The notes below the pieces were generated by a model. That model was not told where the DNA came from and did no database searches. It saw only the letters and a list, made by a program, of their open reading frames with translations. Of a stretch of 64,000 nt of DNA, positions 8,567 to 37,484 are shown piece by piece. The stretch is taken from contig BDGG01000018.1 in assembly GCA_001949185.1 (NCBI GenBank), positions 588,693 through 652,692 of the forward strand, in the 5' to 3' direction. Positions within the stretch are counted from its first letter, which is position 1. Each line of letters opens with the position of its first letter. Position numbers and translations under genes: made by a program. This stretch comes from Ramazzottius varieornatus (Eukaryota > Animalia > Tardigrada).

Positions 8567-10111
8567 ATGTGGAAACCACTGCAGAATACAAAGTCTGTGA
8601 CTTTGGTTCAAGGATGTCTCTTCGCGATTACGGCTTTTATCATTCTGATGACCGTCGTGGCCTACCATTCATACCTGGTGTACCGAGTACGGATTTCCGG
8701 CCCTCGCACTACGCCGCCCGAGGCCGTCCTCAGCGACTTCAGTGTCCCACCGTGCTTATTCGGAGATTTGCCCTCTGCACGACAACAACCAGTCCTAAGA
8801 GTGGTGGTGGTGGTCTACTTCTCCATTCCACAGAAGAGTACGTATCTCGATCAGCTCAAGTGGTGTATGCGCAGCTTACTGGAAATGGCCGAGACCGAAC
8901 CGCCCTTATGGCGCACCGACCTGATCATTTATATGGAGAATGTCACCCTGCCGCAAGTTTTGGACCTCGGCTGTAGCACGGCTCCTCGACGAAATGCCTT
9001 TCAAGTGTATCCTGGTACAGTATGCGCGGGTTCAAAACCGGAAGCTGGAGACGGAATTTCGCGACAGTATTCGATTGATTCCAGTACACAGAATGGGAGC
9101 TCGGCTAATCAATTGATTATGGTCGTTCTCCCAGTGGTGCACCCAGCCAGCCAATAACATTGGAAACGTGCGCCACTTGGGAAAACAAGCAGACTCGACT
9201 AAATCATTTTCCCAAGTGGCGCACGCCATCGGCCAATAACAATGAGAACGTGCGCCTTATGAGACATCGATCTTACGATCAGGCGCAATTCGGTGACCGA
9301 AGTCCTAATTTGAGACGGGTTTTGTTCTTTTCCAGAATACGAGCGAAATCTTCAGGAGCAAATGAAAGAATACCCATACCTCGACTCGATTTATCCCCTA
9401 GTGGAGCACTCGTCCAGCTATTCCAAGTACGACTTTGTGGTACGTTCTGACCTGGACGTCTTCTTCACTCCGGCTTTCGCTGGGTGGATTCCACCCAACT
9501 GCGCATTTGTAACGGGGAACGGAGGCTACAGCGACACCTTCAACATGGAGAAGCTGGCGCATGTGGCCAGCTACAGCGGTATCCACTTCAACGCTTCAGT
9601 GCGCAACGTTGGCTCCACATGGATCGGCACACCGCAGTTGGTGGCCAAGGTGGCTGAACGGACAGTTCACTGGATGGTACACCTGAGCAGGATCGAGTTC
9701 TCGCCCAAGCAGCGCACCATAGCCTGGTGGGGTGGCGCTCCCTTGTGGATGGAATGGCATTATGGTGTTCTGTCGATGTACGGAGGTCACTTGGCTGTCA
9801 ATGAGGTCCTCGAATCAGGTAAACGACATCCGTATCTCAAATTGGACCTCGATCATCCCACTACCTCATCGGCGAGTTGTACGGTTGATGGACCTTTACA
9901 TCTTCATACCTACCAGTCTAACGTCTACTTTAGCAAGTCTGAGTTTAATAACCGCAAGTATGTTGGCGCCAGTGCTCTTCCTGCTTTCTTGAATAGCACT
10001 AGATGTGATTACGCTGCCTATCTAGCTGCCGATTCGTTGGTTATGACTTCTGTGGGATTGGCCGAGAGGTTACGTTCCGCGAAGTTAACCACCCTGCAGA
10101 AAAGAGTTTAA
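8567..10111 (+). CDS. Type II membrane protein with DxD motif, glycosyltransferase-like, uncharacterised family; 2 exons (donor ambiguous near 9015-9066, acceptor 9335)
   Basis: N-terminal TM (GCLFAITAFIILMTVVAY), WRTDLIIY, then YPYLDSI...YDFVVRSDLDVFFTP...GNGGY...NVGSTW...WHYGVLSMYGGHLAVN; the intervening intron carries the palindromic repeat. Confidence 0.7.
9131..9261. repeat. Palindromic 12-25-12 repeat, 2 units (82-bp period), intron of the DxD gene
   Basis: Units at 9131 and 9213; spacers 25/25, linker 33. Confidence 0.9.
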
Positions 10112-11409
10112 GTGCCAGTATAAAAGATGTGCTTTATCGAAAGTAAACTTTCCCAAGAGTCTTCCTACTTCTGCATCGTCCGGGCTCTGGATTCACACGG
10201 CTGCAAGTCAGACCATCGTACATGGGCCAAGGCCAATGCAAACTCTGCAGAAACAGTCCGTGTCCGTATCGTTGACCCTGACAGAAAGATGGTATTTCGG
10301 ACTTTGTCCTTCTTCGGTCTGTTGAACATGAATTCGAATTTCGTTAAGAATGGGGTTGCTTTCAGCGTTTTTACTGTGGGAAAGGCTCGCCTTTTTGTGC
10401 GATCAGAGACCAAAGCCAAGAGAATGTACAAAGATTCTTGGTTCTACACTGTAGAGCTTGCATCATGAGACTAGTTGGTACGGTGGAGCTGCATAACAAA
10501 AGTACAAGATACCTTGGCGTTGAATGAAATTATGACATGCGCCTCTCGCTTGGAAACGTTGAAGGCTGCATTGGTAGCGAACAGAAAACGAAGCCCACAG
10601 CAGCCATCGAGGAAAAGACTACGCGCATAAGACATCCATCTTATCCAGCCACCCATACCACAAACCAGCAGATGGCAAAGCAGACAAGAGCCACTTTTAC
10701 TACCATAGACCAGTCAAGGCGTTGACCTTCTCAGCCGAACAAACCTGCGGCGAATAGGGATAGGAACTGTGGAGGCACATAAGCACCACGCTGGCGGTTT
10801 GGCCGATTGACACTGACCATTCGACAGACTACATCAATGACGAGCACACTCCAAGCAACTCACGATTGCGGACACTGGACAGTGGGCAGCTTACGCCTTA
10901 CGGTTTCGGTGTAAGCAGAGCAGATACATCAATCAATTGCACCTTCTTGATCCCATGTAATTACCTCGTGTTTTCGCAATTTCCCTTCTGGCTAAATATG
11001 TCGTTCAGGCATAGGACCGCCCCTGATGGACACGGCCTTGATACTTGTTGTTTAACAAGGTCGTGCCGACCTGGGGCGCTTCTTCATGCCTGGCATTTGA
11101 CTTTTTCGTTACTTAAATTGATGTCAGAGTCAGATGGATTGTGATGGACAACTTTGAATGGCTCCTGAAGTTTGCTATATCGTTCGATTCTGACGTTGAA
11201 AAGTTATCCAAGAGAGAATGCTGCAGCCTGCAGAAGTCTGCTACGCGTGAGGGTGGAGACCAGACTTCGAGCCATGTTGCACAAGCCAGACTGGACTGCG
11301 CCACTGCACCATAGCGACCCAACTCTGCCACCTCACCGTCCTCGCCGCTCGCAGCACAAGACTAAAGCACCCTTACTGGCGCAGAAGCCCATTCCCAAAG
11401 TCAAAAAAA

Positions 11410-13150
11410 GTGATTGAGATAGCCCCGACAGAGTTCAAAGCCTTGATGCGGTACTGTTTCCCCACAAAAGACTACCTGTCGTACGAGAAGCTGGCGTCAG
11501 TGCTCGATCCCAGTCCCACTTCCGCACCTTCCCTCTGGAGGAGAGTCTTTGACCGACAAGCTGTGCTGGCTGTCTTCTACCAGCTGGACTATGCTGCCGA
11601 TGTCCCGCGAGTGTCGAAATGCATACGCATTCGCAAGGAGAGGAACTCCAGCCTGCAGTATGTCTTGGTTCCCACCGTCTATCTACACGGGCAAGAACTG
11701 TCCGACTCGCATGTGTCGGCTATTCTCGGCTCCGCCGTACTTCGCAAGCCGGAAGATGTAACCAGGCTGCTAGAAAGCCTGGATACAGCGGGTATGGAGG
11801 AGGAAGATGGGCTAAAATTCTGTTAATAGGCAATTCTGATGAAATCTTTAAAATTATCTCGTCCTGTGTTTCTTTAACGGAACCCAGCAGTCTCTTCGCA
11901 CTGCAATCGCAATTCACCGCCACTCCTACCCGCACTCTGCAGCCAAAGCCTAATATCTCCTTCCTTCCGGTGGTGTCCAGCCACCGAAAGGTGGAAGCCT
12001 ACCAGCTTCAAATGAACAAAGTTGTTTCTTTGCTTTAGCCATCCTTGAGAAGGACAAACCAAAGCAGCATAAGACCCGACGGAAACGACGTGATATGCCG
12101 GTCAGAGGTCCTTCGCCTCCTGGCCAGATTATAAGCACAGCCTTTGATGGCGGCTCGGGTATCGATGCATCCCTTTCAGCAAAATTGACGGTCAACTTCA
12201 CGAATTTCTGACTGAATAAATTGGGCTTGTCCTTACGGATAAAATGTTTGGTCTCTATGGGTTCCTGAAGCAGCCAAGCGGTCCAGTTCCTCCTGAATGC
12301 ATTGAGCTTCACAACACAACCGCACCGTGGAACTTCTCGGTTCCTGGTGAGGGCAAAGTAGTCTTACATGAGCTGTACCCTCAGGTTCTCATTGAGGAAC
12401 AGGCCATGCTCACTCTTCAGGTACGAACGTGTCGACATAACGGCTTCACAATATGGCGAGTCGGACGATGAATTCACCCACATCAACACTGAAGACGTGC
12501 GCCGCTTGGGAAAATAATCAAACTCGATCAGATCGCTTTCCCAAGTGGCGTACACTCCCAGCCATTGACACTGAAAAGGTGCGCCACTTGTGGTGACAAT
12601 CTGGCAGAAATCATCTGCCGACGTCCCGTTTGATCCTATGATTTCTTTTATGGTCTACTGAAATCGAGCCGTATTATTTTTAGCGACAGTCTAGCATGTA
12701 CAAATGGTTCATATTCATCCAGCTCCTCGGCGGCGAACGAGGTCTCTTCCGGTTGAGTTCTATATGGGTCAACGACAAGAGCGGCCAAATGATGGAGGTT
12801 CTGGGCAAGAACGCCATCTTTGCTCTCGATCGTAAGTAATGTACACATCGTGATTATTCCTGAGAAAGGGAGTTCCGGAAGGAGAGACAACACAGTTATT
12901 CCTGAGACTTTCGGTAAAATTAAACTGTATACTCAGAGTTTTATTTCTGTTGGTAGAGCATGTAGTGGATGTAGTCAAGGCTGGAATCTTGGCGTTAGCC
13001 AAGAGCGTGCCCGGACGAAATGTATCGACGAAAAACTTTCTTTCGACCAGATTTTCTTCTTGGCGTGGGGCAAATGCCGAAGCCATCCGTGCGGAAGGTG
13101 CTTTGCCCAAGAAAGGACTGAAACGGAGCCTGACTAATGATTCGAAGTAG
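11410..13150 (+). pseudogene. Uncharacterised spliced gene or pseudogene (3' exons splice in frame, 5' part interrupted)
   Basis: ...EEQAMLTLQ|gtacg (12421), tttttag|RQSSMYKWF...IFALD|gtaagt, tag|QHVVDVVKAG...NDSK* join in frame; the upstream frame contains stops; no family recognised. Confidence 0.35.
12497..12590. repeat. Palindromic 12-25-12 repeat, 1.5 units, in a predicted intron
   Basis: Half-site 12497, linker 33, unit 12542 with spacer 25. Confidence 0.9.
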
Positions 13151-13926: not shown

Positions 13927-15352
13927 TTACGGAAATTGGGTAGGTCTGGAGCTCCGACTCCTAACCTCCGTGATGATGAAACTGGACGCTTGCGAAGGCC
14001 GGCTTCCATCATCTCCCCTCACCAATCGGCTACTCAACGGGGAGCTGGAGCCATCTGCCGTCACCGCCAAATCCGAAGCTCGTAGTTGGTCCAAAGGTAC
14101 TCCCCTCAACCGCGAAGGAGCTTCGCATACCGGGCAGGTTCCCGACTTTTCCTTATCACCAGTTCTTCCCACCACCCTACACACTTGTTGCACACCTGCT
14201 GAGGTCTTTACCCAGTCCACCAATGGCTGGAGACCTTCATCGCATTGTAATGGGTTGCCGTATAGAGTAACGTCTTCCAACGCGGTATCGCTGCGCCAAG
14301 CTAGCACGAACTCTCGGGGGATCGCTGACAGACGGTTGTTGTCCAAAAGCAGGAAGCGCAATGCGTTCAGTCGAAGCAGCCCTACATTCAGCAAGCTAGT
14401 TCGTACGGAACACAACCATACCGGTAACATTCACCAAAAACGGGACGGCGCAGATCCAGATGAATTCACCCAAGTCGTTGTTCCACGTGGCGCACGCTCT
14501 CTGTCAATAACACTGTGCACGTGCGCCACTTGGAAAAATGATCAAAACTCGACAAGATTGTTGTTTTCAAGTAGCGCACACTGGCGGCACATAAAAACGG
14601 AAACTTGCACCACTTGAAACAACGTTTTAGGTGGAAAGTATTTGCCACGTTCTAAATCAGGGGAAATTACCGCGAGGAAGGACGATCAACTGGTTTCCCC
14701 TCAAATCCAACCGTTCGACCCTTGTTATTCGATCGAACAGATCGTTTGGTAGTTGACGAAGATTATTGTTGCGTAAGTCCAAAACTCGAAGAAGAGCCTG
14801 ACTGGTAAAAGCATCGACCGATACTTGGCTGATTTTGTTATCGGCTAATGTCAGTGACTGTAGCTTGGGCAGGAACCTCAGGCTTTGCCCGTCGATGGAT
14901 GTAATTTGGTTTTGTCCTAGGTTCAGTACACCCAACTGGGGTAAATCTGCCAAGGATAAATCCGTCAAGCTCCTGATGTTGTTGCCGGTTAGGTCCAGAG
15001 TGAAGAGACGGGAGAGTCCGCTGGCTGTACTAGCCGAAAGTCGTTCGATACCAGCATTCTTCAGAACGAGTTTGTCTAGTCGTGGCAAGTCACCAAATTC
15101 AGGCGGTACGTCCGGTCCGTACGGCTTAGAACGAGACGGCCCTGAGATGACAATCTCAAGTACTTGGACATTGCGATCGAATCTTGTGAGGTCCAGCGGG
15201 GGACTGCGATCCACCAGCTGGCAGCGGATTCGTTTCTGGCCATCTTGAGCAACGTCACACTGACAGGAAGTCGGACATGCCGCCTCAGTTACCCCTCGTT
15301 CCACCAGGATGTAAGAAGCTACGATGAACAGCATCCAGGACATTCCTGCCAT
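13927..15352 (-). CDS. Secreted/cell-surface leucine-rich repeat protein (signal peptide, LRRNT, multiple LRRs, LRRCT); exons 15352-14671 and 14381-~13966; 3' end uncertain
   Basis: Signal peptide MAGMSWMLFIVASYILV..., CPTSCQC cap, repeated LxxLxLxxNxI, LYGNPLQCD...C..PSRLRG cap; intron 14670-14382 restores the frame. Confidence 0.85.
14484..14616. repeat. Palindromic 12-25-12 repeat, 2 units, LRR gene intron
   Basis: Spacers 25/25, linker 35. Confidence 0.9.
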
Positions 15353-17002: not shown

Positions 17003-20000
17003 ATGAGCGTGTGGATGGTCATCCTTCGTCTTGAGCTTCCGACCGAAGCTCGATCTCCGGCCAGCTTTGACTTTGCCAGTAAGTAACTGCCTCTTGCCCT
17101 ATCATATTATTGTCGTAACCTCTCTTCATGTATCGTTTCAGCTGAGCGCCATTCGAAGCAACTATACGAGCCCGTTGTACCACGCTTCTACGACAGTAAA
17201 GCCGAGTTCCAAGCAGCTGTCAAGAGAGCGCGTGGTAAACGCAACTTCCGCTCGTATCGCATCGAGACATATAGCCCGGCCGACGTTGCCAAAAGGACCA
17301 TGGCTCAAGGAGCCAACGAGAAGCCGGCTATTCGATCCCGACATACATCCATGAGATCGGACACTGGAGGAGATTCGGCTTCGGAAAGCGGTGTTTCAAG
17401 TAAGAAGTCGAAACCAATCTGCTGTCATCAAAAATTTGCTCTTGTCTGACGCTTTTTGCTCTACAGACGACGAATACTGTGTACAGTTCTATTATGGAAA
17501 TCCAAGCGTCGAAATGGTCAAAGGAGTCTTGCATCTGTTTCGCGAGAAGTGAGTTAAAAACTGTTCGAAACTAGGATCTGAAATAGACTTGACAAGATTG
17601 TTTTCTAAAGTGGCGCACGCGTTCAGTCAAGAAGACTGTAAGTGTGCGCCACATGGGAAAGCGATCTTGTCGAGCTGCAATTTATCGTTGGTACTTGACA
17701 TCAAGTCGTCCCGAATTTCGGTCAATGGTATCTTGGACTCTTGGCCTGGTAACTTTCTACACTACTTGCTGTTTTAGTGAGCGCACGTCACTGAAGCCCA
17801 ACGTTGCCCGAAGTTCCCTTCTGTGTATGCTGGCCGTTCCTGCATACCTGTCCACACATGATCTTCTCCGCTTCGCTGCACCCTTCGCGTACGTAGTCTC
17901 CTTCTCACTTCCCTATAGGCCTTCCCCAAGTCGTATTCATTCGTTGCCGAGTCGCTTAACCGGACTGTGAACTGGTTAACTAGAATTTTTCTTCCCTTGT
18001 AGGGCCGAAATTGAAAGGCTAAAAATCATACGAGACCAGACACCGAACCAGTACATGGTTTTACTACGCTTCCGAAGCCAGGTATAAGAATTCATTTAGG
18101 TTATCTTGTTATCCAACGTATGGCGCAACATCGACTGGACGTTTTTCTACAATGCATTCTTTTTTCATTGGCAGGAGTCTGCCGACTTGTTTTACGACCA
18201 TTTCAACGGAGTACCTTTCACATCCATCGAACCGGGCATCTGCCATTTGGCCTATGTGGCCAAAGTGGACTGTGTCCAAGACATGGAGGTAACAGTACAA
18301 AGTGCACTTTAAAAAACCAGAAAGAAGCTTACTTGATTGCTCATGCGGATTTGTCCGTGTAGGGTGGTGGAATGAGTCTGAAGGGCGTCACGGAGTTGCC
18401 GACCTGCGCTTTCTGTCTGGAGAGAATGGTAACAAATTCTCCCACATCGTGTCTCTTGACACCGACAACTATCTGTGCGGCAGACGGAAAATGACCACTT
18501 GAGTTTTCTAGGATGAAGCAGCCAATGGGGTCCTGACTATTTTGTGTAATCATTCCTTCCACAGTGCCTGCTTGGACCAGTGGGTCGATTCAAGCTGTCC
18601 GGTATGCCGCTACTTTCAGACGCCGCAGATGGCGGAAGAACAGGCCTGCTCGACCTGCGGCATGTCATCCGATGTGAGTAGTACAACCTCCCAGGCCACA
18701 GACAACAAACGATGCTAACCCACAGCGCACCTTCTCATGGCTAATGGCTGAGAGGATGCGCCACTTGACAAAACAACCTGGTCGGCTTGACTCTTTTCCC
18801 AAGTGGCGCACTATTACGGCGTTACTTGGCTCATAGCGTGCGCCACTTGCAAAAGCCATCTTGTCGGTCGCGATTACTTTCCCAAGTGGCGCAGGTTTTT
18901 ACTGTTATTGGTCGAGAATGTGCGCCACTTGGCAAACTCCTGGGTTCTTTGTCAAGCAGTCGTTTGATTTTGAGGTTCTATCTTTCGTAGGATCTGTGGT
19001 TATGTGTGATATGTGGGAATATTGGCTGCGGTCGCTATTCGGACAAACACGCATTTGTGTGAGTCGCTCACCGTAAATCCAGACTTTGTCCTCTCACTTC
19101 TTACAAGTTGTGTTTTTTCGTGTCTGTCATGCAGACATTTTGAAGAGACGCAGCACACGTACGCCCTGAACATGAAAACGCAACGGGTATGGGACTACGT
19201 GGGAGACGGATACGTTCATCGGCTGATCCAGGGCCAAGATGCCGACAACAAGGTGGTAGAGTACCAAGCCGGAAGTGGACAGCAGGATGAGAAGCTCGAA
19301 TCGATTACTCTCGAAGTAAGTCTAAGACAAGCTTGAATGGTGGACAAAAGGAGAGGTTCCATTCGAGAACACGCTGAATGGCTTTCTAGTATACGTACCT
19401 CTTAACGACTCAGTTGGAGTCGCAAAGACATTACTTCGAAGAACGGATAGAAAATCTGGCTCGCGCTGGCGAGGAAGAACGCGAAAAGATGAGGAGAAAC
19501 TTTGACGAGCTCTTTGCGAAAGAAAAGCAGCTTTCTGAACAGCGGAGGATAGAAGCCTTGTGTGCTGCGGAACGACGGGCGGAAGAGCTGGGGCAAGAGC
19601 TTGAGGCTAGGCTGACGAAAGAACGCGACGCTTTAGACAAGAAGTACCAACAGGTGCGACCATTTAAAATCCTATAGATGTTTGGGCCGGCAGGTGAGGA
19701 ATCCAGACAGATCATTTTTCAAAGTGGCGCACGTTTGCTGTTAATAACACTGCAGGCATGCGCCACTTGGGAAAACGAACAAGATCGCTTTCCGCAGTGG
19801 CGCACGCTGTTGGATAGTAACAATGAGAATGTGCGCCACTTGACAAGACGATCTGGTTGGAACTGTTTGCCTACGTCCCGTTTGTGGAAGGCTTTAAAGA
19901 CGGTGTTGCTTAGACGGTGACGAAACTGGTCAAGGTGACGAAAGACTTGGAGACTGAGAAACACATGAATGAGTGTCTACGGAGTAATCAGAATGAGCAT

Positions 20001-20755: not shown

Positions 20756-20971
20756 TAACAAAGACCCGGAAGTGCAGTTTCTTGCTCATTGGTCTATTCC
20801 TGCCGCATCTTCTGCAAGACGCTTCGGACGACGCGCAGATCTGTAAGAACGGTCTTGGTAATCTCCTGAGCCTGCTCTTTCCGACTTCCACTGCGTCGTC
20901 TCTGAAGGAGAATGTCAGGGCGTAACAAGAAAATGCCAGCTTGGAAAACAAAGTCAATAGGATTATCTCGT

Positions 20972-21102
20972 CAAGTGGCGCACTTTCCAGTGCCACTGCT
21001 CAACGAATGCTCCGCTCAACAAAAAAAACTGTGGCGAGTTTCACTGTTTTTCTCAGAGGGCGCACCTTCCCACTATCATTACCCGGAAAAGTGCGCCACT
21101 TG
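20972..21102. repeat. Palindromic 12-25-12 repeat, 2 units (first degenerate), ATRX-like intron
   Basis: Unit starts 20972 and 21054 (82 apart); second spacer 25. Confidence 0.85.
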
Positions 21103-24974: not shown

Positions 24975-26032
24975 GGAGAACAATCTGACGAGCTGGATAC
25001 GCCCAGCTCCTAAAACTGCTCTACCTACTGGTGGTTTGATCTTTGGGGACTTGCTGGTACTTGACTTATCCTTGGCGTCCTTGGCCTCGAAGCGAAGACG
25101 ACGAGCTTCGAAAATCAGGCCCGTACTAGTACTGGCTTCAGACGGACTTTCCACATCCATCACTTCCACGTCTGCCTCGTCCGACTCCAAACTTCCCACG
25201 TCCATGGACTCTGTCTCCTCATCGTCCCACACCAGCTTCTCCACTTCCACCAAGGCTGCAGCTGCCCCTTTGGTGGTCCGCTCTTCCGACTTCAACCTCT
25301 TGTTAGCCTTCGCACCGCTCACCGCCGTATCCGACCCGGAAGTCCACGGTAGTAAGACCTTCTGCTTCTGCTGAGACGCGCTGGTCTCATTCCTATCCTT
25401 CTTCGGTATTACTTTCACCGAACTGCTGGAAGGCGTGTCAGCCTCTTCGGCATCCACTTCGAACGGGCTGGCATTCTTCATTCTAGGCTTCACTTCCTTG
25501 TTCTCACTGACAGTCCCCAAGACCTTACGAACACCTTCCTCTTCCTTCATCCCTGACTCATCTAACTTTCTGCCCGCTGTCAGTTTACCAGACTTGCCTT
25601 TGGAGGAAAGACCTACGTTGCCGAGAAGTTCACGGCCTTGATCTTTGAGTTCTTCATCAGTCATGCCGCAGTTGGCGTAAAGGACGTTGAGCAGCTTCGC
25701 GCTGAAGTCTTCGTTCTCCTGAGAGTCTTCGTCAGTGTCAGGCGTTCTGCAAGCACGAATATCTTTGACCAAGTCTTCAGCGTCGGAAGAGGAATGCTCG
25801 TCGATTTCTTGGTCCTCGTCGTCTCTTTCTTGTTTATTCTCTGGGATTTCCGGTTGGCCACTCTCCCTCGCTTCTCGTTCCTTCTTCTTCTTTTCATCTT
25901 CCGCCAACTTTTCAGCGGTTTCTTCGGCTGTCAAGAGTTTGAGGAATTCGTCGAAACCCTCGCCTAGAAAGCCGATACTTCGTAAGTTACAGGTGGGGAC
26001 TTGACGTACGAACTCGTCAAGGTATTTCTTCC

Positions 26033-26081
26033 CAAGTGGCGCACGCTTGCCGCCAAAACGACGGTAACCGTGCGCCACTGG
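26033..26081. repeat. Palindromic 12-25-12 repeat, 1 unit, ATRX-like intron (~26127-25964)
   Basis: Spacer 25. Confidence 0.9.
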
Positions 26082-28789
26082 AGACAACAGAATGGTCGCG
26101 TTTGTTTGCCCAGCAAAAGTCGACCTACCGTCGGTTTCCGCGGGTAAGCCTTCGTCGCTACTATCTACAAGGAAATTGCACTTGAACATGATTCATCCTC
26201 TCAACGCAAAACCATACAAGGAAGAGCCTACCGTAAGGATCGAGAGGAACGCTTAAGGAGACGACTCCCGAAAAACCACGTAGCCCCGCCTCACTTTCTT
26301 CCGAAGATGCACGTCGATGACATTGATGCACCAGTTTTTCGTCATCAAATTCCAAGTCGCCCTGTGACACAGCGCAGAAGATCACCCACATATTCCAGGC
26401 TTCGAAACAAGCGGCAGTAAGGACGACTAGGTTCGCTGCCACTTACCTCGTGGTCCGAAACACTCATGGCTTCCAACAACTGCGTCAGGGCAGCTTCCTG
26501 CAGTGCCAAACAAAAATCAGACGGATTCAGAACCCACCAGGATTGTCAGATTAAACCAGGAGAAAATATGCTGCTCGGACACTTTAATCACTTACCGCTG
26601 TGGCAATCTTTCGGGCTTTTTCCTCTTTCTTCAACTTTTTCTCTTCGCTCAAATCCTTCCCTTCATAGCCCACACCCAGCGCGGCATCCTCCTTCCCAGT
26701 TATGTCGTCCACCTGTGAAATACCTACCATACCACCCATTTCTCCGGGCTGGCCATCGTCTTCAGCTTCGTCATCAGCATCCTCTGAGTCACTCTCCGAT
26801 TCTACAAATTCATCATCTCGACAGGATACTTCCACATGCTCGAACTAACTTACCAGAAATCAACTTACCAGGTGGTGAGACGTACCGGTTAGGGATACTT
26901 TCGTCGCTTTCATCTTCTTCGCTAGACCAAGCACCAGAATCGTCGCGCGACTCAAGCTCCTCCCTCTTAACCTTCTCGTTCACTTTCTCTAAATTCTCGA
27001 TGGCTGTATTCAGATCCACGTTGTGATCCAACAGTCTTCTCAGAGCTAAGGTCAGCTCGGACGGTCTCTCCACCTCGGCAACGGGCTTCTTTCGCAGCTT
27101 TTTGGACTGCACTTCCGGCGGAAGTACTTGGCTGTTTTCTTCGTCTTCCAGCGACATCGTCGACAACTCATGAACCAGATCAACCTGGCCATCCCTCCCC
27201 ATGTCTCCGCCATCATCGTTAAAAACTCCGTTCTCTTCTGCAACTTTCTGGACTTGCTCGAGCGGAACTTCACTCAAAATCCAGAAGCATCTTCGGTTTT
27301 GAAGCTGGAAGCCACGTAGTATTTCGTCGCTTGGTCATCTTGGAAGTTGGACCAGTCGGTCATTTCGTCTTCGCCTTCGTAGCGCTGAGCAGCGTCTTCG
27401 TTCAGTGAATGGACACCAGAGTCCCGCAACGAGACATGGTTGACATGTTCCGCCGTTTCAGCAGGCTTCGCTCCGATACGAAGTGAGGAAAGGGACTCCT
27501 TCAGCGTGCTGTAAAATTCGACCATCCTGCTGCGACTGGCTGGAACGTACCGTCCTTCCCTGCAAACAAAGCCTCCTTGTACAGGTTCACCTACGCAACC
27601 AGAAATACTCGGAGAACAAGCTGAATTTACCTGGTCGTCGTTGTGGAAAGACTCGCCGGCCGAGTGAAGGTGGCTATGTCTGGATGAAGACGCAGTAACC
27701 GCGCGTCCTTCGGCCAGACTCATGGTTCCATTGGGCTTGGAAGCTCCTTCAGAAAAGAGCTGAGGCTGTCGGAAGCCGGATTTGTAAACAAACTTGCTGG
27801 CTTTGCAGCCTTTGCTGATGACGGCATCGAAGACGAGGGAAAGCAAACCAGATTGAAAATTATCCATGAAAAACTGGAAATCGAAAAAGCCATGGAAAAA
27901 GACTGTTTCACCAACCAACAATCAGAACTCCACAGGGTGTGTGGCAGCGGAAGTTGCCAAGTGTGGCCAAGGTAGCCGAAGGGTAGACTAGACCGATGGA
28001 AGCTTGGAGAGCAGCACGTCGAACCATGCATTCAAGAACTTTTTGCCGTCAACTAGGTTTCGATTGGCGTAGGTAAATCGCGCTTACTGTCATCACCGAT
28101 TTTGGCACGCCGCGCTGCACAGCGTACCCAGGTGTTCGCCAAACTTTAACCAAGCAAACGTTTGTTCGCTGCTCGCCGCGCCAAAACTCGTTGTGGCTAA
28201 AGGTTTTGGCAAGCCATTGTGAAGGTCGGCACCTGGCGAGTAGCGAACACCCAACACTGGTCTGTTCGTGCTGGTATTGGAACCGGAAGTCAGTTCTGAC
28301 CGGTGTCCACTCTATCCACTGTTAACTGTTTACATTGTCACCGCTTCCAGCTAGCCGCGATGAGGTTCTGGATCACCGGAACGCCCATAAATCCATCGAA
28401 AAAATCTGACGCAGTTCGAATAAACGGTCCAAAGTACAGATTTTATCGGTTTCGAAAGTTAAGTTCGTTTACTGCTGGAGGATCAGGGCGAAACTAAAAA
28501 AGAAGCTATGGTATTGATACTGTCGGACTGTATTCCAGGATTAAAGATCGTATGCAGTAGTTTAAGAGTTAGCGTTCGAGTAGGGAAAGAAACTACACAA
28601 AACGAGAGGCGTTGAATGCTAAAGGAATGAGGATAAGGTTTAATATCATGGTAAAAAACAGCAGCTAACGGAAGACAAGAAAAATTCCAAGTGAAGTTCC
28701 CTAGTACTGCACACAAAAGTGGTCACCTTTACGAACATCCCGACCGTTGCCGGTCCACTTCGACCGGCGAAAAGACACTCTTTCCGAAA

Positions 28790-30856
28790 TCACAAAGGTA
28801 TGAGATAGCTCCGATTCCCGCTTTTACACTGCACGGCTTTAGCCCACTGCGCCAAGTCCATGGCGAACTCAGTCTGCACACTCTCAAACTTTTTCTGCAA
28901 GAACAAAACGAAAAGCAGGTTACTTTCCGCCTCTATCCCGTAGGAAATATTTATCAACGTAACTGAAAATTTCAAACTAACTTTCGAGGTGAAAAATTTT
29001 CTTGCAAAGATATCAAGCCGAATATTCTGGGCTCCGCAAATCAACTAAGCAAAATCGCTTTGTCAAGCGGCACACGCTGTCGGCCCAGAAAACCAAGACG
29101 ACGCGCCACTTGGACAGAGCAATCGGATTCAACGAAATTCCTCAACTAGTGACGCACGCTGTCTGTCAATAACACAGGAAACGTGCGCCACCTCGGAAAA
29201 GGATTCTGACCAGTTTGTTTGCCGAGTTCCCATTTGTCGAAGAAGTTCATCATTAGTTAGAAGAATGGTATACCTGCAAAACTTGAAGAACACGAGCTTG
29301 GTCTTCTTCCGACAGCTTTTCTGAGCACCAGGCGAAGCTGACATGGAACTGCGGGTTCTCGTAGAAGGTCGGCATGTTGAAGGACTTGAGACACGAGTCG
29401 ACAATGCGTAACAGACTCAGCATTTCCTCTTTGCCGCGTCCAACCTTCAACGCCAGAAACGATCTACAAACAGAAAATCACATATCCAGGGTCGATTTTC
29501 ATAACTTTGTCAGTGCTGACAAAGTACTGTATGACCGTACTGTAACAGCAGACGACTGACGTGCGTATCATTGATTATTAAACCCAATATTGACTCACGT
29601 GTTGGCTTGATCGTTGGTAAAGAAGCCCATCTCGTCGAAACTGTACGGAAACCTAGGAGAAGAAAACGTCAGCCATAAACAATAATCAATAAAAGTCAAC
29701 TACCAGACAACCTTGACTCGCGAAACTTTAGCAATGAATTCTTCCTGCATAACTTTCCCTTACTTTGCATTCGATGTTTTGACAATTTCGGCTTTAAGGT
29801 GCGCCGTGAAGTGGGGAATCTCGTGGTAGCGTAACGTGACAGTTCGCGACATGCTGATATGTGGGTCCTCTATCATCTTCCACTTGACGGGCTTGATGTC
29901 CTCTATACTCATGGCTTCGTTGATCAGTTGGTTGAACAACGAACCGAGTCCATCCAAACGCGCTAAAAGAAGCAAAGCCCCCACATTATACAAGCGGTCA
30001 CATGATAAAAACGCGCAGTTAGAAGTGGAAGCTCGGCAAAACAAACTCGACAGAACTGTTTTCCCCAAGTGGCTGTAAAAGCGCGCCACTTGGAATAACA
30101 ATATTGTCGAATTTAACTGTTTTCCTATGTGGCGCATGTTGCCGGTATTACTGGTCGACATCGTGCGCCACTTCAGACGACAATCTTGCCAGGCTTGGTT
30201 GCTTTTCCAAGTGGCGCACGTTCACAGTGTAATTGGCTGATATTATGCTCCACTGGAGAACAACGCCGTCAGAGTAGGAAAATCACTTCCTACTATTTGT
30301 TTTCTCCATCGATCAATTTTTGACATGAAGTCCGACTTACGGGTAAGGTAGACGAAGGTAGCCCAGCTACCCGGGAAATGTGCGAAGGCTCGAACTCGTC
30401 CAGACTCGGCATCGCTGACAGCGTTGTCGTGCAGTTCCTGCTCTGCACTGTCTCCCAGCGCTTGGTCACAGCCCAGAAATCCCGGAAGGACCGTGGGCTG
30501 TTCTTCCACCCGTTCTTTCGTGCCGTCTTCTTCTGACGAAGTGGTCGAACTGGTGGATGACGGCTTCCGACCAGTCTTCACGTGAATGTCCGAAGAGGCC
30601 TTCTTCGATGATTTCTCCGAAGCCTTTTTCGAACCATCTCTGAAAGTTAACCAAGGATCAGTAAAAATATAGTCCCTCATTGAAGTATACGTTCAGAAAT
30701 GACCCTTCATGTTACGCTGACATGAAGATGACGGAGAATATCTTCTTACTTTTTGCTGCGGGTTGGTTTGGGAGCTTTGTCTTTCTCCTCGTCCGAGGAT
30801 CCGTACTCGTCAATCAGGCGACGTATGGCATCGCGAACACGAGAAACCATCGGCAT
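28790..30856 (-). CDS. USB1: U6 snRNA phosphodiesterase (2H/HVSL family), multi-exon
   Basis: LIDEYGSSDEE start region, GRVRAFAHFPGSWATFVY, two HxS motifs (PHISMSRTV, FHVSFAWC), FFTNDQ, C-terminal VQCKSGNRSYLIPL*. Confidence 0.93.
29064..29194. repeat. Palindromic 12-25-12 repeat, 2 units, USB1 intron
   Basis: Spacers 25/25, linker 33. Confidence 0.9.
30066..30256. repeat. Palindromic 12-25-12 repeat, 3 units (first internally deleted), USB1 intron
   Basis: Linkers 33/33, spacers 25/25. Confidence 0.9.
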
Positions 30857-31747
30857 TTGGGACAGAGGAATCCGAGGAACGGTCTGAAACAGGAAATAAC
30901 ACGGAGTTCGTATGGAGTAGTCGAACGGCAACTCTCGAAGGAAAATGAGTTTAGAACAGAACTGTTACAACATACGTGGACGTCAGATCAAAGCTCAAAC
31001 CTCGATACGAGTCAGACAGCGTCTCTAAAGTTACCGTGGTAAAACTCAGCGTCTCAGCCGCTCCTGGCTCGTACTTCCGATAAAACCTGTTTCAACCGAG
31101 AAACATGCGTCAGCTCGAATGACGTGTTCGATAGATCAAGGTTCAGACTTACCACAACGACGTCGCTCGAAGGTCTGCTCTCAAGCCTGGTTGGACAGAC
31201 TGCTGGAAGTAGAAAACACGGCCTGTTCTTTCATCTTGATGTTGAAACAAAAAAAAAACTCGGGAGTCGGGAGCACTTCTTCGGAAGATTCGGAACCCAG
31301 AGAGATGAGGGATGGATAATAAAGTTGCGAGAAAAGTTATGTGACTTATGTCGGCAAGATCCGACAAGGTTGAATGAGCTGGTAAACACGTACGTACAAC
31401 TGTGACATCATACATTCCTGTTTTAGCTTAGACGCACATGACTCATGCGGGGGTGCGGTGTGATTAATCGCCAGAGTTACTGAAATCGGCATCTTGACGT
31501 CACCGATGAAAGGTTCCTCTATTGATTGAAAGCCTGGGAAAATTATTGATTGATCAAAAGGGAAAAGCAACTTCCGTCAGACCGTCACTTCCGGTGGCGC
31601 ACTGCTTTCATCCCTTCTAATTCATCCGTTCCAGCATGTTCCTCTTTTGCAGAATGCTACAATGAATCGGATCCCGTCCACGATTACCGTCGCTTGAGGT
31701 ATGAACGCTGGCACGTTGGAGCCGAGAGCTGAAAGAAGAAATTGAAG

Positions 31748-34700
31748 ATGGCTCATTCGAATAATCCGCTGGACTTGAACGGGACATCCTTTGATCCCGA
31801 CCAATACCTGCGCAAAGTTCTCACGGTAAGCTGACCTTGCGTTGCGTGCTCACCTCGATTCGTACATGGCTGTTGGCAGGAAGAAGCATTACCAGACCTG
31901 ATCGAGCATGAAATCGAGATGCAGCAGCAGATTAAGTCGCTGGACAGCGATATGCAAACACTGGTCTATGAAAACTACAACAAATTCATCACGGCCACTG
32001 ACACCATCCGTCAGGTAATTTAGAGCATCCGCAATCTACCTAAGGCGGTCTGAAATCTTACACACACTCGCTTTCATTGCAGATGAAACAAGACTTTGGA
32101 GAAATGGAGCAGGAGATGGAGAAGTTAGCCAGCAATATGGCTGCCATCAACCAGTTCAGCGCCAAGGTCAATTCTTCCTTGGCGCCTAATCGGACCAGAA
32201 TCCGCAACCTTTCCGAGACCCATTCCATTCTGAAACGTCTCCAGTTCCTTTATGAACTGCCTGCCAGGTAGATTTAACACCCAGAAGTGTCGTGGTGAAT
32301 AGCAGAGAATTTTCGTAAGGTTGGCCGATGTAACGCGCCTGGTCTTCACGGACCTACATACACCGACATGGACACTTACTGCGAAGCGTTTGTTTGCAGG
32401 TTGAAGAAGTGTTTGGATGACGAAAACTACCGACCAGCCGTCCTCGCTTACTGCAAAGTTCGCTCCGTCCTCGAGAGCTACCGGCACCTCACCGCATTCC
32501 AGCAGATTGATAAAGACTGTCTGCAGATCATGGACACGTTGAAGAAAGCCCTGTATCAGAAGTTCCGCAGGAAGAGCACCACGACGAGAGAACTGGCCGA
32601 ATGCATCGAGCTCTTTACCATGCTGCAAGAACCCGCAGAGATTCTCTGTCAAGAGTTCCTTGCTCATGCTGAAATACGCTTGCTGGATGATTTACAGATG
32701 CTTGATGAGCAACTGGCACTGTGGATCGACGCCTCGACGAGGGAGCAAGCAGCGGATATCAGGACGTTTGTCGATATGGGCTCCAACGGCTTTTTAAGTA
32801 ATGTCTGCTTGGTCGTAGCTTCGTATAACGATATGTTCGTCTGCCGTGTCGAAACCAACGTCCATGAGTAGGTCATCTCTCATAGATTAGAAAGCTAAAG
32901 GATTGTTGCTCACTGAATTTTTCGATGTTTTTCCAGAGAGGAACAGAACGAGGTGGCAAAGCGGAAGTTGACAGGTTTCGTCAGTAACCTAATGGAGCGT
33001 TACTTCAGTTCTGCGAAGCAACGCATCCTTCTTGAGGTAGTGCGTCCATCGAAGTTTTGTCCGATTTAGGACATAGTGTTGATGAAATGGCAGGTCGACA
33101 AACAGAGTCTACCAGAGTCTACAGATCGTTTCTCCAAGTGGCGCACCTTATCAGCGTTACTGGTTGAATGCGTGCGCCACTTGGAGAAACTAGGTGGTCG
33201 AATTTGTGTGTCCAGCTGACCAATTACCATGGAAAATGAAATGTAACCGGGGTTTCTTTTGCAGACTGTGATGTCTTCAACATGCGAAATCTATGTTCGG
33301 GCACTGGACCGCTTCTCTCGGAGGTTACAGGCCATCGACAGGCTGATCACCGAAACAGACTACTCGCGAGTGGGCTTCAGGATGGTCCAAGAAGCAGCCG
33401 CTTTACGCTGCAAACTGTACCTGCAGCATCTCAACAGCCAATTTCAACGTAAGTTAGCCACTTCCGCTCCCTCAATCACCTTTCGCTAACCGATGTATGA
33501 TAAGGATTATGACCGTACTGTCGTTACAGGGACATTGACGGAAGCTCGAGAAATGATCGCAGTCAAGCCCACCGCTATCGATGTGAACCAGAAGCTCCTC
33601 TTGGCTTGCGTACAGAAAATCCATGCCAAGCTGATGGAACGTGTTAAAGGCGCTCAAGCCGATCTCAAGGTTCGTTTCGACCTGTGATATGCCACTCGTT
33701 CTTCCAATACCTTGTTGTCCATTACAGGCGTTTGTCCAGCCGGACGTGATGTTCGCCAGTAACCAGACGTTCCATGAGCACTTCTGCAAGGTTGATGTAC
33801 GAGAAAACATGGTGGTAGCTCACTTCAACGACATGCTGACAATATGCGAGGTACGTGGTGGCACGTTCGATTTTCTAGAATGATTAGGAATAATTCAATA
33901 AACGTTGTGATATTAATACATAAGTTGTCAAGCAATGCATGAAAAAATTGTTTGTTTTGTTTGACCAAGTGGCGCATCTTGTACGTAGGTATCGTATCAT
34001 AATGCGCCACCTAAGTTGGGTGTACTTTAAGAGCGCCTTTTTCAGGAATTGTGCCAGCATGGAGTGGACAAGACCGCCGGTTCGACCCTCCTTCTCCTCG
34101 TCCTCTCTCGTCACTGCCTGGACATGAACCAGTCCTCCATGAACTACGTCATGACTCTTACTCGTGAGCAGTTCGCCACTAACGAGCGCAATGTCCACGG
34201 CGTACCTCCTGTACTCCTCCAGCGAGCCAAAGATACTGCCCAGAAGCTGGTCAACCACTTCGTCTACCAGGAAGGTCTATCTATTTCACAGATGATCCGC
34301 AAGAGCGTGGAGACTCGCGACTGGCTCAACACCACCGAACCACGCAATGTCCGAGCTGTTATGAAGAGGGTCGTCGAAGAACTGACCGCTACGGACGCAC
34401 AAGTTGGCCAGCTGTTTGAAGAAGGAACCCGCAAGGAAGCAGGTATGTATGTTCACCTGACAAAAAGAATTAGAAAATAACTGATCAGAGGGGAAAATCG
34501 GACGTTGGCGGACGAACTCAGCCCGATCGTTTCTCGAAGTGGCGCACACTTCCAGCCAGAAACACGGAAGTGATGCGCGACTTGGGAAAACAATCAAACC
34601 CGTGAAGATCGTTTTTGCAAGTGGCACACCCTCTCGGTTGACAACGATGAGGATGTGCGCCACTTGAGATGACTATCTGGGTGAATTCTTTTGTCGACAT

Positions 34701-35236
34701 CCCAAAGGAAATCTATTTCTGAAGTCGGTTTAATCGTGATATGTGTTCTGACAGGGAGTTCGTCGAGCAGGAGGACGAGGCCGAGTGTAGCCAAGAGCGT
34801 ATCGAGGAGCGCCAAGTGGACGAACTACTCGCCGGTGGATACGAGCTTGTTGAGCAACATTCAGAAGCTGTTTAGTGAAAGGATCGAAATCTTTGGCAAC
34901 GTGGACTTTTCGAAAGTGTCGATCTTGACTGGGGTCATCAAGATCGGGTTGAAGACATTGTTAGAATGTGTGAGGCTGAGGACGTTCGGCAAGTTTGGGT
35001 TGCAGCAGCTGCAGGTGGACGCCTACTACCTCCAGCAGTACTTGTGGAGATTCGTCAGTGATGAAAAGTAAGTCGAGTTCAGTCGTGGAGTTGACTTGCG
35101 GCATGATAACATGAGGACATCTTGTAGTCTGGTCACTATACTACTGGAAGAAATTGTCAGCAGTGCGGCGCAACGCTGTCTGGAACCGGTGTTGATGGAG
35201 CAAAGCGTGGTGGAAGCGATCTGCGATCGCGGGTAG
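31748..35236 (+). CDS. VPS51: GARP/EARP complex subunit Vps51, multi-exon
   Basis: [112 protein letters not shown], ends VEAICDRG*. Confidence 0.96.
33135..33183. repeat. Palindromic 12-25-12 repeat, 1 unit, VPS51 intron
   Basis: Spacer 25. Confidence 0.9.
33966..34013. repeat. Palindromic repeat, 1 degenerate unit, VPS51 intron
   Basis: Spacer 24. Confidence 0.8.
34536..34666. repeat. Palindromic 12-25-12 repeat, 2 units, VPS51 intron
   Basis: Spacers 25/25, linker 33. Confidence 0.9.
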
Positions 35237-36566
35237 ATGATTTCTGATTTGTCAATTTCGCGATGTATCGTGATGCACATTGCGAATAATGTTAGTGATG
35301 GTTTCTCGAATAATGTTGATAATGTTTATGATTGTTTCCTCGTATGAACCCCTGTACAGCTTGACTTATTGGTTAGCGGTTCTATGATGAATCGAAAATT
35401 TCCATCCTGGTACCACCAAGCGGACTTGGTCGTCGAGTCTGATGTTTAGGAGAAGCTATAAATTCCGAAGATCTGGTCGGTACCACCGAAAACCTGACCC
35501 TGTGGAATCAAGAAATAAATACAATGGATCAAGAAAGGAATACAATGGGTTTGCTGGTTTTGTATTCCACTTGGAAATGGCCAATTTTGTATTCCGTTTG
35601 TACTAGTGGAATGATGACGCCATTTCGGTTTTCGAATGCTGACTCATGGCCCACATTGATGAGAACACCAAAATCATATTTTCCTATGAACTTTGAATTT
35701 TGATTGTTCCATCGAGCTGCGAACATCATTTTAGGGAAACTTGTTGCTACTCTTGAAAGAAATAGTTGTCGCTGCAGAACGGCAGCTCTTTGCTTCAGAA
35801 CTGATGGAGAAGGTTTTCGGTAAACACGAGACCTGAATAGTTGCCGGACGGTATAATGCCAAGTCCGGAACCTCAGTGGACGCGTGGAGCATACATCTGT
35901 CAGATGAGCTGACGCCGTCTAACCAAGAAACTTAAACCCACGGGCAAACATCAATCAAAGAAGAGAAACTATTGTACATCACTTACGCCTAATATCCCTG
36001 GAGGAATACAAAGGATGTATTGTTTTGTAGGTCGTTTTTGTATTCCCGTAACAACCTCGATCGGAATAGAAAACTGGACCATTGTACTCCTTCGTGGATT
36101 CCTTATGTATTAAAGCGCATACCCCAAACGACACGGGAGTTAAATACAAAAACGGCCGGCCACCGAATATACCAGATTGTCCGTGGGGTAGCTGCGATCA
36201 TGCACCTTGTTATCCATTAAGTGAGTACGAAGCGTTATTGCAAACTGCAGATTTTCAATGGTGTACGAGAGTCTTCCTCGAACCGTGCCGACTGAAGTCC
36301 ATGCAGACCGGAAATCATCGGCGCCATCTGGCGGGAATTCTGCAGCGCTGGCCAATCAAACACGTGTAGTCTGGCGCTCAGCTCGTGGTTGGATGTTCCC
36401 GCCTAAAGAGGCCGAGCCAACTGTAGCTGGATGACGTCAGCGTGAATACCTCACTATTTCCCCAGCCGGGCGAGCAAGAAATTTTAGTACAGAATTTTCC
36501 CATCTTTCATATCTCGGCATTCCTGATCTTTGTCTTTGCAGGTGTGGACAATCTCCCAACGTCAAG

Positions 36567-37484
36567 ATGAAGCCAACACTGAGCATGTTTGTAAATGTCA
36601 GCTCGATGCTACGCCAGAACCAGGCAGGAGGCAGCACTCCTCGCAGCGGTGCTACCGGAAGTGAGTCCACCACCCACAAGACGACCACTACCACAGGAAC
36701 TACCGGAACCAGCGGAACCACCATGCCTCCCAAGACGGCTTCTTCCACCACAAGCCACACCAGCTCCAGCAGCTCTACTCCTCCTCGATCTTCGACCACT
36801 ACCAGCACCATGAACGCCGCCAAGAACGGAGGTGGCAACAAGATGGTGATGGGCGCCGTCGCCGTCGCCGCTGCTGGCGGAGCTTACTGGTATTTCACCA
36901 AGACCAAGTCCGGTGAACAGGCTATGGTCGATGCTAAGCACTCTACCAAGGCTGCTGCTGAGAAGGCTGCCATTTCTGCCAAGTATGCTGGAGGTGATGC
37001 TTTGGACAAGGCTAAAGATATGGCTCATGATAAATACGACCAGGTATGACTATCATTATTCTATCAATAAATCAGTCAGACCAATTTAGCTGGTTCCACT
37101 GATTGAGTTTACGGGTTGATTGACTTACTGACTTGATCAAAAATTAAAATTGCATTCTTGTCTCAATTGTCTGGTGTATAATACATTGATTGTTGATTGG
37201 TGGTTGATGCTCGACGAGACGGTTTTGCTAGGCGGCGCACGTTTACGTTATTATTGACCGATGGCCTGGGCCACTGGGGAAAGAACGATCCTGTCTTTGT
37301 CGTGTTTGACTGTTTCCAACGTTGCGTACTTTGGCTGGAAGCGTGCGCCACTCGGTTAATCAGTTGATTGACGATGGTTGTTTGATTGTCTTTACAGGCG
37401 AAGGACCTCGCTGATAAGGGTCTGCATAAGGCCAAGGAAGTGGCCAAGGACAAGTTGGACGATGCCCGTAAAGCCTTGAAATAA
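36567..37484 (+). CDS. Group-3 LEA-like protein with S/T-rich linker, one TM helix and 11-mer repeats; exons 36567-37043 and 37398-37484; an upstream exon is possible (acceptor at 36541)
   Basis: Spliced C-terminus AKYAGGDALDK AKDMAHDKYDQ AKDLADKGLHK AKEVAKDKLDD ARKALK* (exact 11-aa period); TM MVMGAVAVAAAGGAYWYF. Confidence 0.75.
37229..37354. repeat. Palindromic 12-25-12 repeat, 2 degenerate units, LEA gene intron
   Basis: First spacer 25, second shortened. Confidence 0.8.

What the first reader, a model, noticed from the sequence alone, without database searches (positions are those of the whole stretch)
9016..37397. The palindromic arrays fill the long introns of host genes and avoid exons
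Seen in sequence: 20 of the 27 loci lie in introns I can delimit (DxD gene, 12.4-kb gene, LRR, BRAP x3, ATRX-like x6, USB1 x2, VPS51 x3, LEA, Harbinger x2), and none lies in a confident exon. In BRAP and VPS51 every intron longer than ~150 nt contains an array, while the 55-130-nt introns do not. The arrays sit inside the intron and leave the splice sites free. Density is higher in the gene-rich 9-38 kb segment (19 loci) than in the transposon-rich 38-64 kb segment (7 loci), the opposite of the ordinary TEs here. Inference: because each array is palindromic, it can fold out of the pre-mRNA on either strand and restore a short effective intron length. That could make insertions splicing-neutral or functional (structure-assisted splicing, ADAR substrates, or Drosha/Dicer hairpin precursors). 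Exception: Pmp3 intron 2 (183 nt) has no array.
Basis: partly seen in the sequence, partly recalled or inferred. Interest (0 to 1): 0.75.

Follow-up and report, generated by a model that had tools for sequence, protein, structure and literature searches.

The report
Old palindromic transposon crowds tardigrade introns
In this stretch of a tardigrade genome, a third of the introns carry old copies of an already catalogued palindromic mini-transposon, which accounts for their length, and its paired 11-base core has changed about three times less than the rest, likely because a protein binds it; a splicing role remains untested.

Summary
The window is Ramazzottius varieornatus. Of 27 loci, 19 lie in the 57 introns I delimited and none in an exon: 3.7 loci per kb of intron against 0.21 per kb elsewhere (conservative p=4e-4). 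The repeat is already catalogued as a ~123-bp non-autonomous DNA transposon (ramVar1-0, -7 "Sola" and 55 further library rows, Peona 2024 supplement). That paper's main text does not mention introns. The long-intron link is mostly circular: minus the array, those introns have a median of 104 nt against 75 (p=0.15). Units are predicted to fold on either strand, but the 11-bp core shows 0 compensatory changes in 385 arm pairs, there is no strand or G·U bias, and 9 of 10 multi-unit arrays are head-to-tail rather than palindromic. An inner 8-bp stem does covary weakly (p≈0.004-0.009). The unexplained point is that the core carries 9% mismatches against 26-31% in the spacer. This holds in inner and non-intronic copies too, while the element's ends have decayed. 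That pattern points to sequence-specific protein binding. One window only; no genome-wide test was possible.

The parts
9093..9305 (.). Two-unit array in the 321-nt intron (9015-9335) of the DUF7164 'DxD' gene (+)
   Evidence: Pfam DUF7164
12482..12629 (.). 1.5-unit copy in intron 12421-12683 of the 12.4-kb gene (+)
   Evidence: model only
14456..14647 (.). Two-unit array in intron 14382-14670 of the LRR gene (-)
17575..17677 (.). Single copy in BRAP intron 17549-17777
   Evidence: RNA joint
18725..18936 (.). Three-unit array in BRAP intron 18674-18990
   Evidence: RNA joint
19684..19881 (.). Two-unit array in BRAP intron 19654-19913, flanked by an exact 4-bp direct repeat (left end profile score weak)
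20933..21136 (.). Array in intron 20902-21183 of the ATRX-like (SNF2) transcript (-)
   Evidence: joint in one run, table 5c
22310..22590 (.). Three-unit array in ATRX-like intron 22276-22623
   Evidence: RNA piece starts at 22624
23376..23498 (.). Single full-length copy filling most of ATRX-like intron 23374-23531
23980..24260 (.). Three-unit array in ATRX-like intron 23956-24306; the third unit is a recent inverted copy of the second (96% in the spacer)
24871..24996 (.). Copy with an extra half-site in ATRX-like intron 24799-25028
   Evidence: RNA piece starts at 25029
25996..26114 (.). Single copy in ATRX-like intron 25964-26128
29025..29233 (.). Two-unit array in USB1 intron 28895-29273 (-)
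   Evidence: RNA joint
30038..30265 (.). Array (one spacer-deleted unit plus two units) in USB1 intron 29963-30340
   Evidence: RNA joint
31559..31604 (.). Weak half-site between the USB1 and VPS51 starts (E=0.008); may be chance
33087..33220 (.). Single copy in VPS51 intron 33040-33264
33957..34011 (.). Degenerate copy (E=0.02) in VPS51 intron 33851-34045
34498..34704 (.). Two-unit array in VPS51 intron 34443-34754
37210..37364 (.).
45406..45509 (.). Copy filling 104 of 127 nt of the intron (45401-45527) of a Harbinger-type transposase gene
   Evidence: DDE_Tnp_4
174..273 (.). Copy with unassigned context
37907..38103 (.). Two-unit array about 420 nt past the last gene's stop; not in a delimited intron
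48815..49710 (.). Two copies (48815-48937, 49617-49710) forming a local inverted duplication, 89% alike; non-intronic
52834..52933 (.). Partial copy, probably in an intron remnant of a degenerate CCDC113/96-like paralogue (-)
53437..53557 (.). Best-preserved full-length element: 121-nt palindrome with an exact 4-bp direct repeat on both sides; likely non-intronic
   Evidence: z -6.65
61701..61817 (.). Copy in a predicted intron of a minus-strand gene (model only)

Best explanation
The arrays are old copies of an already catalogued ~123-bp palindromic non-autonomous DNA transposon of Ramazzottius varieornatus that sit inside otherwise normal-length introns, and their paired 11-bp core is likely kept intact by a sequence-specific binding protein rather than by base pairing. 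Shown: identity with the ramVar1-0/-7 family; location in 19 of 57 introns and in no exon; normal residual intron length; core mismatch of 9% against 26-31% in the spacer; exact 25-nt spacing; no core covariation. Inferred: (1) a transposase supplied in trans spread the element, probably leaving 4-bp target duplications; (2) internal duplication between short similar words near the element's start and just after the second core made the 82-bp head-to-tail arrays; (3) exon insertions were purged, while intron insertions were tolerated because they are spliced out and fold on themselves; (4) the excess over intergenic DNA reflects insertion into transcribed gene bodies and/or loss from promoter and UTR DNA; (5) the core was constrained after insertion, most likely as an inverted pair of DNA binding sites for a transposase-derived or host protein. 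The protein is not identified.
For: The window consensus of the central 47 nt equals ramVar1-0 by eye. There are 8 curated rows ('DNA transposon', 103-125 bp, TIR 40 bp to whole length; ramVar1-7 = Sola, 4-bp TSD, 56-bp TIR) and 49 raw rows, including tandem forms -10, -25, -48 and -50. Exact 4-bp flanking repeats occur at 2 of 17 loci against 5 of 272 cross pairs. Residual intron median is 104 vs 75 nt, p=0.15. Core 68/726 vs spacer 253/825 mismatches, p=4e-26; 147/561 in the columns that do not vary among published subfamilies, p=1e-15. A core-free PWM recovers 33 of 35 units in leave-one-out above 12 bits and finds no core-less unit, so this is not ascertainment. The gap is not due to base composition (G/C 6.1%, A/T 6.8% in the 8-mer). 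Spacing is 36 in 29 of 32 pairs. In-place constraint: star-like copies (p≈0.4), neighbouring units no more alike than distant ones (57 vs 54%), inner half-sites as conserved as outer ones (7.7 vs 11.8%), termini only ~30-55% conserved, target duplications decayed at 15 of 17 loci. There are 0 double changes in 385 core pairs. A REPET hAT consensus carries the element just after a GTACGT word that looks like a splice donor (by eye), as the window's Harbinger carries it in its intron.
Against: One 64-kb window and 33-35 units; no genome was available. The intron enrichment is not significant inside the RNA-laid stretch alone (p=0.29), and the comparison class holds young transposons and unannotated exons. 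The inner 8-bp stem covaries (p≈0.004-0.009; four regions tested), and inner G·U pairs lean to the sense strand (34 vs 23), so pairing may matter somewhat. A palindromic core reads the same on both strands, so the lack of orientation bias (15:14) cannot separate DNA binding from RNA binding. TSD support is weak (mean match 1.59 vs 1.29 of 4) and is 'Unclear' for 7 of 8 curated rows. A sample of 34 copies would also look star-like if there were many small subfamilies. No binding protein and no autonomous partner were found.
Confidence: 0.55

Rival explanations
1. Purely selfish relic: the core is the transposase binding site, conserved only because copies with intact cores were the ones remobilised over a long period. 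Intron location is insertion preference plus tolerance, with no host role.
For: Catalogued as a DNA transposon with many subfamilies that differ in the outer arms but share the core. Two exact 4-bp duplications. The family's ends differ symmetrically between subfamilies, which could give the inner and outer covariation.
Against: Cut-and-paste mobility should preserve the termini and leave fresh duplications (general knowledge of TIR transposons). Here the termini are the least conserved part, 15 of 17 duplications are decayed, and internal half-sites of tandem arrays are as intact as the outer ones.
Confidence: 0.22
2. One reading: the hairpins are kept because they shorten the effective intron and help splice-site pairing in a genome tuned to ~75-nt introns.
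For: Strong predicted folding. Residual lengths are near the norm. Intron enrichment. Weak inner-stem covariation. Structure-dependent introns exist in fish (PMC4691745, abstract and opening text seen).
Against: No compensatory change in the core; 36 of 69 one-sided core changes pair on neither strand; no sense-strand bias in folding or G·U. Non-intronic copies are equally conserved (n=5). Elements are local internal hairpins, not bridges between intron ends, and end-to-end graph distance is no shorter than in shuffles (11 vs 14, p=0.92; a blunt measure). Normal residual length is what any insertion into a short intron gives.
Confidence: 0.13
3. The hairpins act as regulatory double-stranded RNA (ADAR substrates or small-RNA precursors) in essential genes, as proposed for palindromic transposons in C. 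elegans introns.
For: The hosts include housekeeping genes. C. elegans palindromic repeats PAL5A_CE, IR3_CE, CELE1 and PALTTAA3_CE are enriched in essential, highly expressed genes and occur in edited regions (PMC6239182, passages). Some RNA contigs from other loci carry copies (loose ends).
Against: dsRNA-binding proteins are largely sequence-blind (same paper), which does not explain an invariant core. Stems are short and imperfect in most copies. There are no editing or small-RNA data for this species here.
Confidence: 0.1

Closest known systems
ramVar1-0/-6/-7/-8/-16/-23/-26/-39 DNA transposon consensuses of R. varieornatus (Peona et al. 2024, PMC11071193; seen: main-text passages, section 6, supplement Tables S1/S3/S4 rows)
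   Same: The same element: same core, spacer, ~123-bp palindrome and tandem forms; 57 library rows carry it (every number from 0 to 34).
   Different: The paper catalogues consensuses only. Its main text has 0 occurrences of 'intron' or 'MITE' and does not treat location, tandem growth or the conserved core.
Palindromic DNA transposons in C. elegans introns: PAL5A_CE, IR3_CE, CELE1, PALTTAA3_CE (Reich & Bass 2018, PMC6239182; passages seen)
   Same: Palindromic non-autonomous elements in introns/UTRs of essential genes, predicted dsRNA, function unresolved; insertion preference and DNA-level effects are discussed there too.
   Different: There, several unrelated families with long duplexes are involved and structure rather than sequence is the shared trait. 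Here one family occupies a third of the introns with a sequence-invariant core at fixed spacing.
Bridged (AC)m-(GT)n introns of teleosts (Lin et al. 2016, PMC4691745; abstract and opening text seen)
   Same: Intronic complementarity proposed to aid splice-site pairing.
   Different: Those repeats sit at opposite intron boundaries and bridge them. These are internal local hairpins of transposon origin with unique flanks.
MITE-borne transcription-factor sites (PMC5950925) and foldback elements with internal tandem repeats (Tetris, PMC4079207); search listings only
   Same: Transposons that spread protein-binding motifs or grow internal tandem arrays.
   Different: Plant promoters or Drosophila satellites; here the copies are mostly intronic and the protein is unknown.

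Membership tests
ramVar1-0/-7 non-autonomous TIR DNA transposon (MITE-like) | Sequence matches the catalogued consensus | tested here: met
   Central 47-nt window consensus equals ramVar1-0, and the outer arm matches ramVar1-23/-39, compared by eye
ramVar1-0/-7 non-autonomous TIR DNA transposon (MITE-like) | Short, non-coding, long terminal inverted repeats | tested here: met
   121-nt full copy folds end to end, z -6.65; no Rfam match in the window
ramVar1-0/-7 non-autonomous TIR DNA transposon (MITE-like) | High copy number, dispersed | tested here: met
   27 loci in 64 kb; 57 library rows; genome-wide count not run
Sola superfamily (as curated for ramVar1-7) | 4-bp target site duplication | tested here: inconclusive
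   Exact at 2 of 17 loci vs 5 of 272 cross pairs; mean match 1.59 vs 1.29; 'Unclear' in 7 of 8 curated rows
Sola superfamily (as curated for ramVar1-7) | Termini shared with an autonomous Sola element (Repbase rule, positions 1-11) | not testable with these tools
   No genome and no autonomous partner available
Structure-bridged introns (Lin 2016) | Complementary tracts at opposite intron boundaries | tested here: not met
   Copies are internal: medians 47 nt from the 5' and 34 nt from the 3' site; end-to-end distance not shorter than shuffles
Structure-bridged introns (Lin 2016) | Pairing, not sequence, is conserved (covariation) | tested here: inconclusive
   Core: 0 of 385; outer arms not significant (p 0.06-0.44); inner 8-bp stem p≈0.004-0.009
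Structure-bridged introns (Lin 2016) | Splicing depends on the structure | not testable with these tools
   Needs minigenes
Introner elements (element creates the whole intron; definition recalled) | Element ends coincide with the splice sites | tested here: not met
   23-199 nt of non-element sequence remain in each of 19 introns; intron positions in relatives could not be compared
Edited or diced intronic dsRNA (C. elegans type) | A-to-I editing or small RNAs on the repeat | not testable with these tools
   Only assembled contigs, which skip the introns

The most novel reading that the evidence does not exclude
R. varieornatus has co-opted one ancient mini-transposon into a genome-wide intronic cis-element. 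It would sit in roughly a third of all introns (about 23,000 if the window is typical) and present an inverted pair of 11-bp sites exactly 25 bp apart to a dedicated protein that marks transcribed gene bodies, for chromatin organisation, protection from silencing, or co-transcriptional splicing.
Probability: 0.3. Interest if true: 0.75.

Novelty: new member of a known kind. Interest (0 to 1): 0.42.

Why it matters
The element itself is catalogued, and palindromic transposons in introns are known from C. elegans, so the basic picture is ordinary. Two points were not found in my 10 paper searches or 3 look-ups of earlier findings. First, one family makes up 39% of intron bases in this window; the window's mean intron of 149 nt is close to the published genome mean of 158, so it may shape the intron length distribution of the whole genome. 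Second, its core appears constrained after insertion. If that holds genome-wide, a radiation- and desiccation-tolerant animal keeps tens of thousands of identical binding sites inside its genes, which is directly testable by population data, footprinting and editing.

Tried and rejected
No whole genome was held, so no genome-wide count, nearest-sibling test or intron-length histogram was possible. Exact paired-core pattern: 0 matches in metagenome and viral contigs. Tardigrade genomic relatives: 80 VPS51 loci were kept of 184 confirmed in metagenomes, none tardigrade-like (best near-full-length identity 47-49%); the HMM finds nothing in their 333 kb. Rfam: none. No run was on record as RNA ('no RNA holder listed'); the contigs are taken as transcripts because they skip GT-AG introns. 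Substitution types in run X11 (A>G 18, T>C 19, C>T 20, G>A 19) are exonic strain differences, not a test of editing. The H. exemplaris miRNA list has no 8-nt core match and its repeat table no 10-nt core match (cells cut at 400 characters), a hint that the family is lineage-specific but no test for Ramazzottius small RNAs. Graph-distance 'effective intron length' was uninformative because shuffles fold their ends equally close. A likeness of the core to the CTCF motif is recalled, not from a call; I set it aside because the most conserved positions here (98%, 97%) fall where I recall CTCF being loose, and one recalled key base differs. Centromere-box and pairing-centre analogies (recalled; one search gave only general passages) were not testable. 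Arm-to-arm conversion as the cause of core conservation was rejected because it predicts shared double changes (0 seen). Paper searches; the exact-core search gave 0 papers holding two of its three terms. The library lacks most subscription journals, bioRxiv supplements were closed, and files 13-17 and 19-27 of PMC5531438 were not searched, so a description may exist elsewhere. In PMC5531438 and PMC5034306 I saw passages only (plus S3 Table and S1 Data of the former); neither describes the repeat in those passages.
Full report
Organism and genes. A VPS51 exon is 99% identical to RvY_18400 of Ramazzottius varieornatus, 81% to Hypsibius and 75% to Paramacrobiotus. No whole genome was held. I built gene models by GT-AG and open-frame search. 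BRAP (600 aa), VPS51 (same length as P0003), the modelled part of USB1, the DUF7164 gene, the LRR gene, the 12.4-kb gene, the 187-aa gene, Pmp3, an F-box-like gene and a Harbinger-type nuclease splice into open frames. The ATRX-like introns were set by hand. Contigs of 4 runs from 3 studies, laid on 17501-34000, skip 15 listed introns (38 more joints not shown), among them four array introns, and one run joins across a fifth.

The repeat. An 11-mer and its reverse complement occur as pairs: 36 with at most 4 mismatches against 0 in shuffles. The start-to-start distance is 36 in 29 of 32 pairs, and 46 between units in 8 of 15 cases, giving an ~82-bp period. The window consensus is a ~123-bp palindrome with ~57-bp arms and a 9-nt loop; the best copy, 53437-53557, folds end to end (z -6.65). 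Nine of 10 multi-unit arrays are head-to-tail, so arrays are tandem repeats of a palindromic unit rather than single palindromes.

Observation. The HMM gives 27 loci. Nineteen lie in 57 introns of 11 genes, 0 in exons and 8 elsewhere. That is 3.66 per kb of non-array intron against 0.21 per kb of other non-exon DNA (p=2e-12); within 8.5-37.5 kb it is 18 vs 1 (p=1.5e-6). In the RNA-laid stretch alone the test is not significant (p=0.29), because almost no intergenic DNA is there. Of 20 introns over 150 nt, 18 hold a copy; the exceptions are Pmp3 (183 nt) and USB1 (151 nt). After subtracting the array, the 19 introns have a median of 104 nt (range 23-199) against 75 for the 38 free introns (p=0.15). 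The arrays therefore make long introns rather than choose them. They are 39% of intron bases, and the mean intron is 149 nt against 158 published for the genome (PMC5531438, passages). With 13,917 genes at 5.02 introns each, a third would be about 23,000 introns; this is an extrapolation from one window.

Identity. The supplement of Peona et al. 2024 lists the element. Eight curated rows are classed as DNA transposons of 103-125 bp; ramVar1-7 is called Sola, with a 4-bp TSD and 56-bp TIR, and the TSD is unclear for the other seven. A further 49 raw 'Unknown' rows include tandem forms. By my count of those rows, 57 of the 897 library entries carry it. None was hit in the Hypsibius table (cells cut at 400 characters). 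The main text has no occurrence of 'intron' or 'MITE'. In the window, exact 4-bp flanking repeats remain at 2 of 17 loci against 5 of 272 cross pairs, which is weak support. A REPET hAT consensus carries the element just after a donor-like word, echoing the Harbinger intron here.

Testing the RNA-structure idea. Array introns are predicted to fold well (mean z -4.9; free introns -0.05), but equally on the antisense strand (-4.5, p=0.40). The core stem forms in 27 of 29 intronic units, and orientation relative to the transcript is 15:14. In the core, 315 of 385 pairs are unchanged, 70 are changed on one side and none on both (4.5 expected). Among intronic units, one-sided changes keep G·U on the sense strand 18 times, on the antisense strand 15 times, and on neither 36 times. 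The outer arms show no significant covariation. The inner 8-bp stem does: 132 Watson-Crick cells against 118, and 25 alternative pairs against 16 (p≈0.009 and 0.004, 33 units after dropping two local duplicates), with G·U 34 sense to 23 antisense. This is the best evidence for pairing. The published subfamilies differ symmetrically at some of these positions, so it may predate insertion.

The unexplained signal. The core has 9.4% mismatches and the spacer 30.7%, or 26.2% in 17 columns that do not vary among the published consensuses (p=1e-15). A profile without the core columns recovers 33 of 35 units in leave-one-out and finds no unit lacking the core. Base composition does not explain the gap. 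Copies are star-like, and neighbours are no more alike than distant copies. Inner half-sites are as intact as outer ones, the termini are the least conserved part, and five units outside delimited introns keep the core equally well. Neutral decay predicts uniform loss, remobilisation predicts intact ends, and selection on pairing predicts covariation. Constraint on sequence and spacing after insertion fits best, as for an inverted pair of protein-binding sites. This is inference: no protein is identified, a palindromic core cannot be assigned to DNA or RNA by orientation, and many small subfamilies could mimic a star.

Comparison. It works like the palindromic transposons in C. elegans introns (PMC6239182, passages). 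It is not a bridged intron of the teleost kind (PMC4691745), and not an introner, since unique flanks remain. Its membership of the ramVar1 family is met; membership of Sola is inconclusive. Three look-ups of earlier findings returned nothing.

Verdict. The long-intron link is mostly circular and the splicing role is unsupported but not excluded. The part worth following up is the intron bias together with the conserved core. Interest 0.42; the co-option case has probability 0.3 and interest 0.75 if true.

Noticed in passing
window 20794-28083 (-): The ATRX-like transcript is spliced, but my model has no open frame: an apparent frameshift near 27275 (run X11 has one extra base there; X1, X2 and X5 match the window) and in-frame stops near 24607 and 21782. 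It may be a transcribed pseudogene or a strain allele.
   Followed up: partly
window 20136-20901: One contig runs from the BRAP last exon through the last ATRX-like exon, suggesting overlapping convergent 3' ends.
   Followed up: no
window 43098-43292: An unrelated tandem repeat with an 83-bp period and short internal palindromes, nearly the same period as the intronic arrays.
   Followed up: no
window 2602-2803, 43326-43769, 47277-47620, 51569-51852, 55904-56056: Better-preserved inverted-repeat elements (85-93% arms) of other families lie outside the delimited introns, the opposite pattern to this family.
   Followed up: no
window 52100-53090 (-): Degenerate paralogue of RvY_08083 (CCDC113/CCDC96-like; 85% over 49 aa) lacking about 140 residues.
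   Followed up: partly
window 36567-37484 (+): 187-aa gene with a hydrophobic segment and a charged helical tail; its only homologue hit is a 155-aa JGI protein (40%); no LEA family match in Pfam.
   Followed up: partly
window 8561-10111 (+): DUF7164 gene (E=2e-68) with a single intron; its origin was not examined.
   Followed up: no
window 44750-46950 and 63236-64000: Harbinger-type nuclease (DDE_Tnp_4) with a convergent partner gene, and a second similar partner gene at the window end (by eye); a weak core remnant lies at 46242-46275.
   Followed up: partly
window 42100-43000 and 60330-61200: Two diverged copies of an ~900-bp unclassified repeat (seen, by eye).
   Followed up: no
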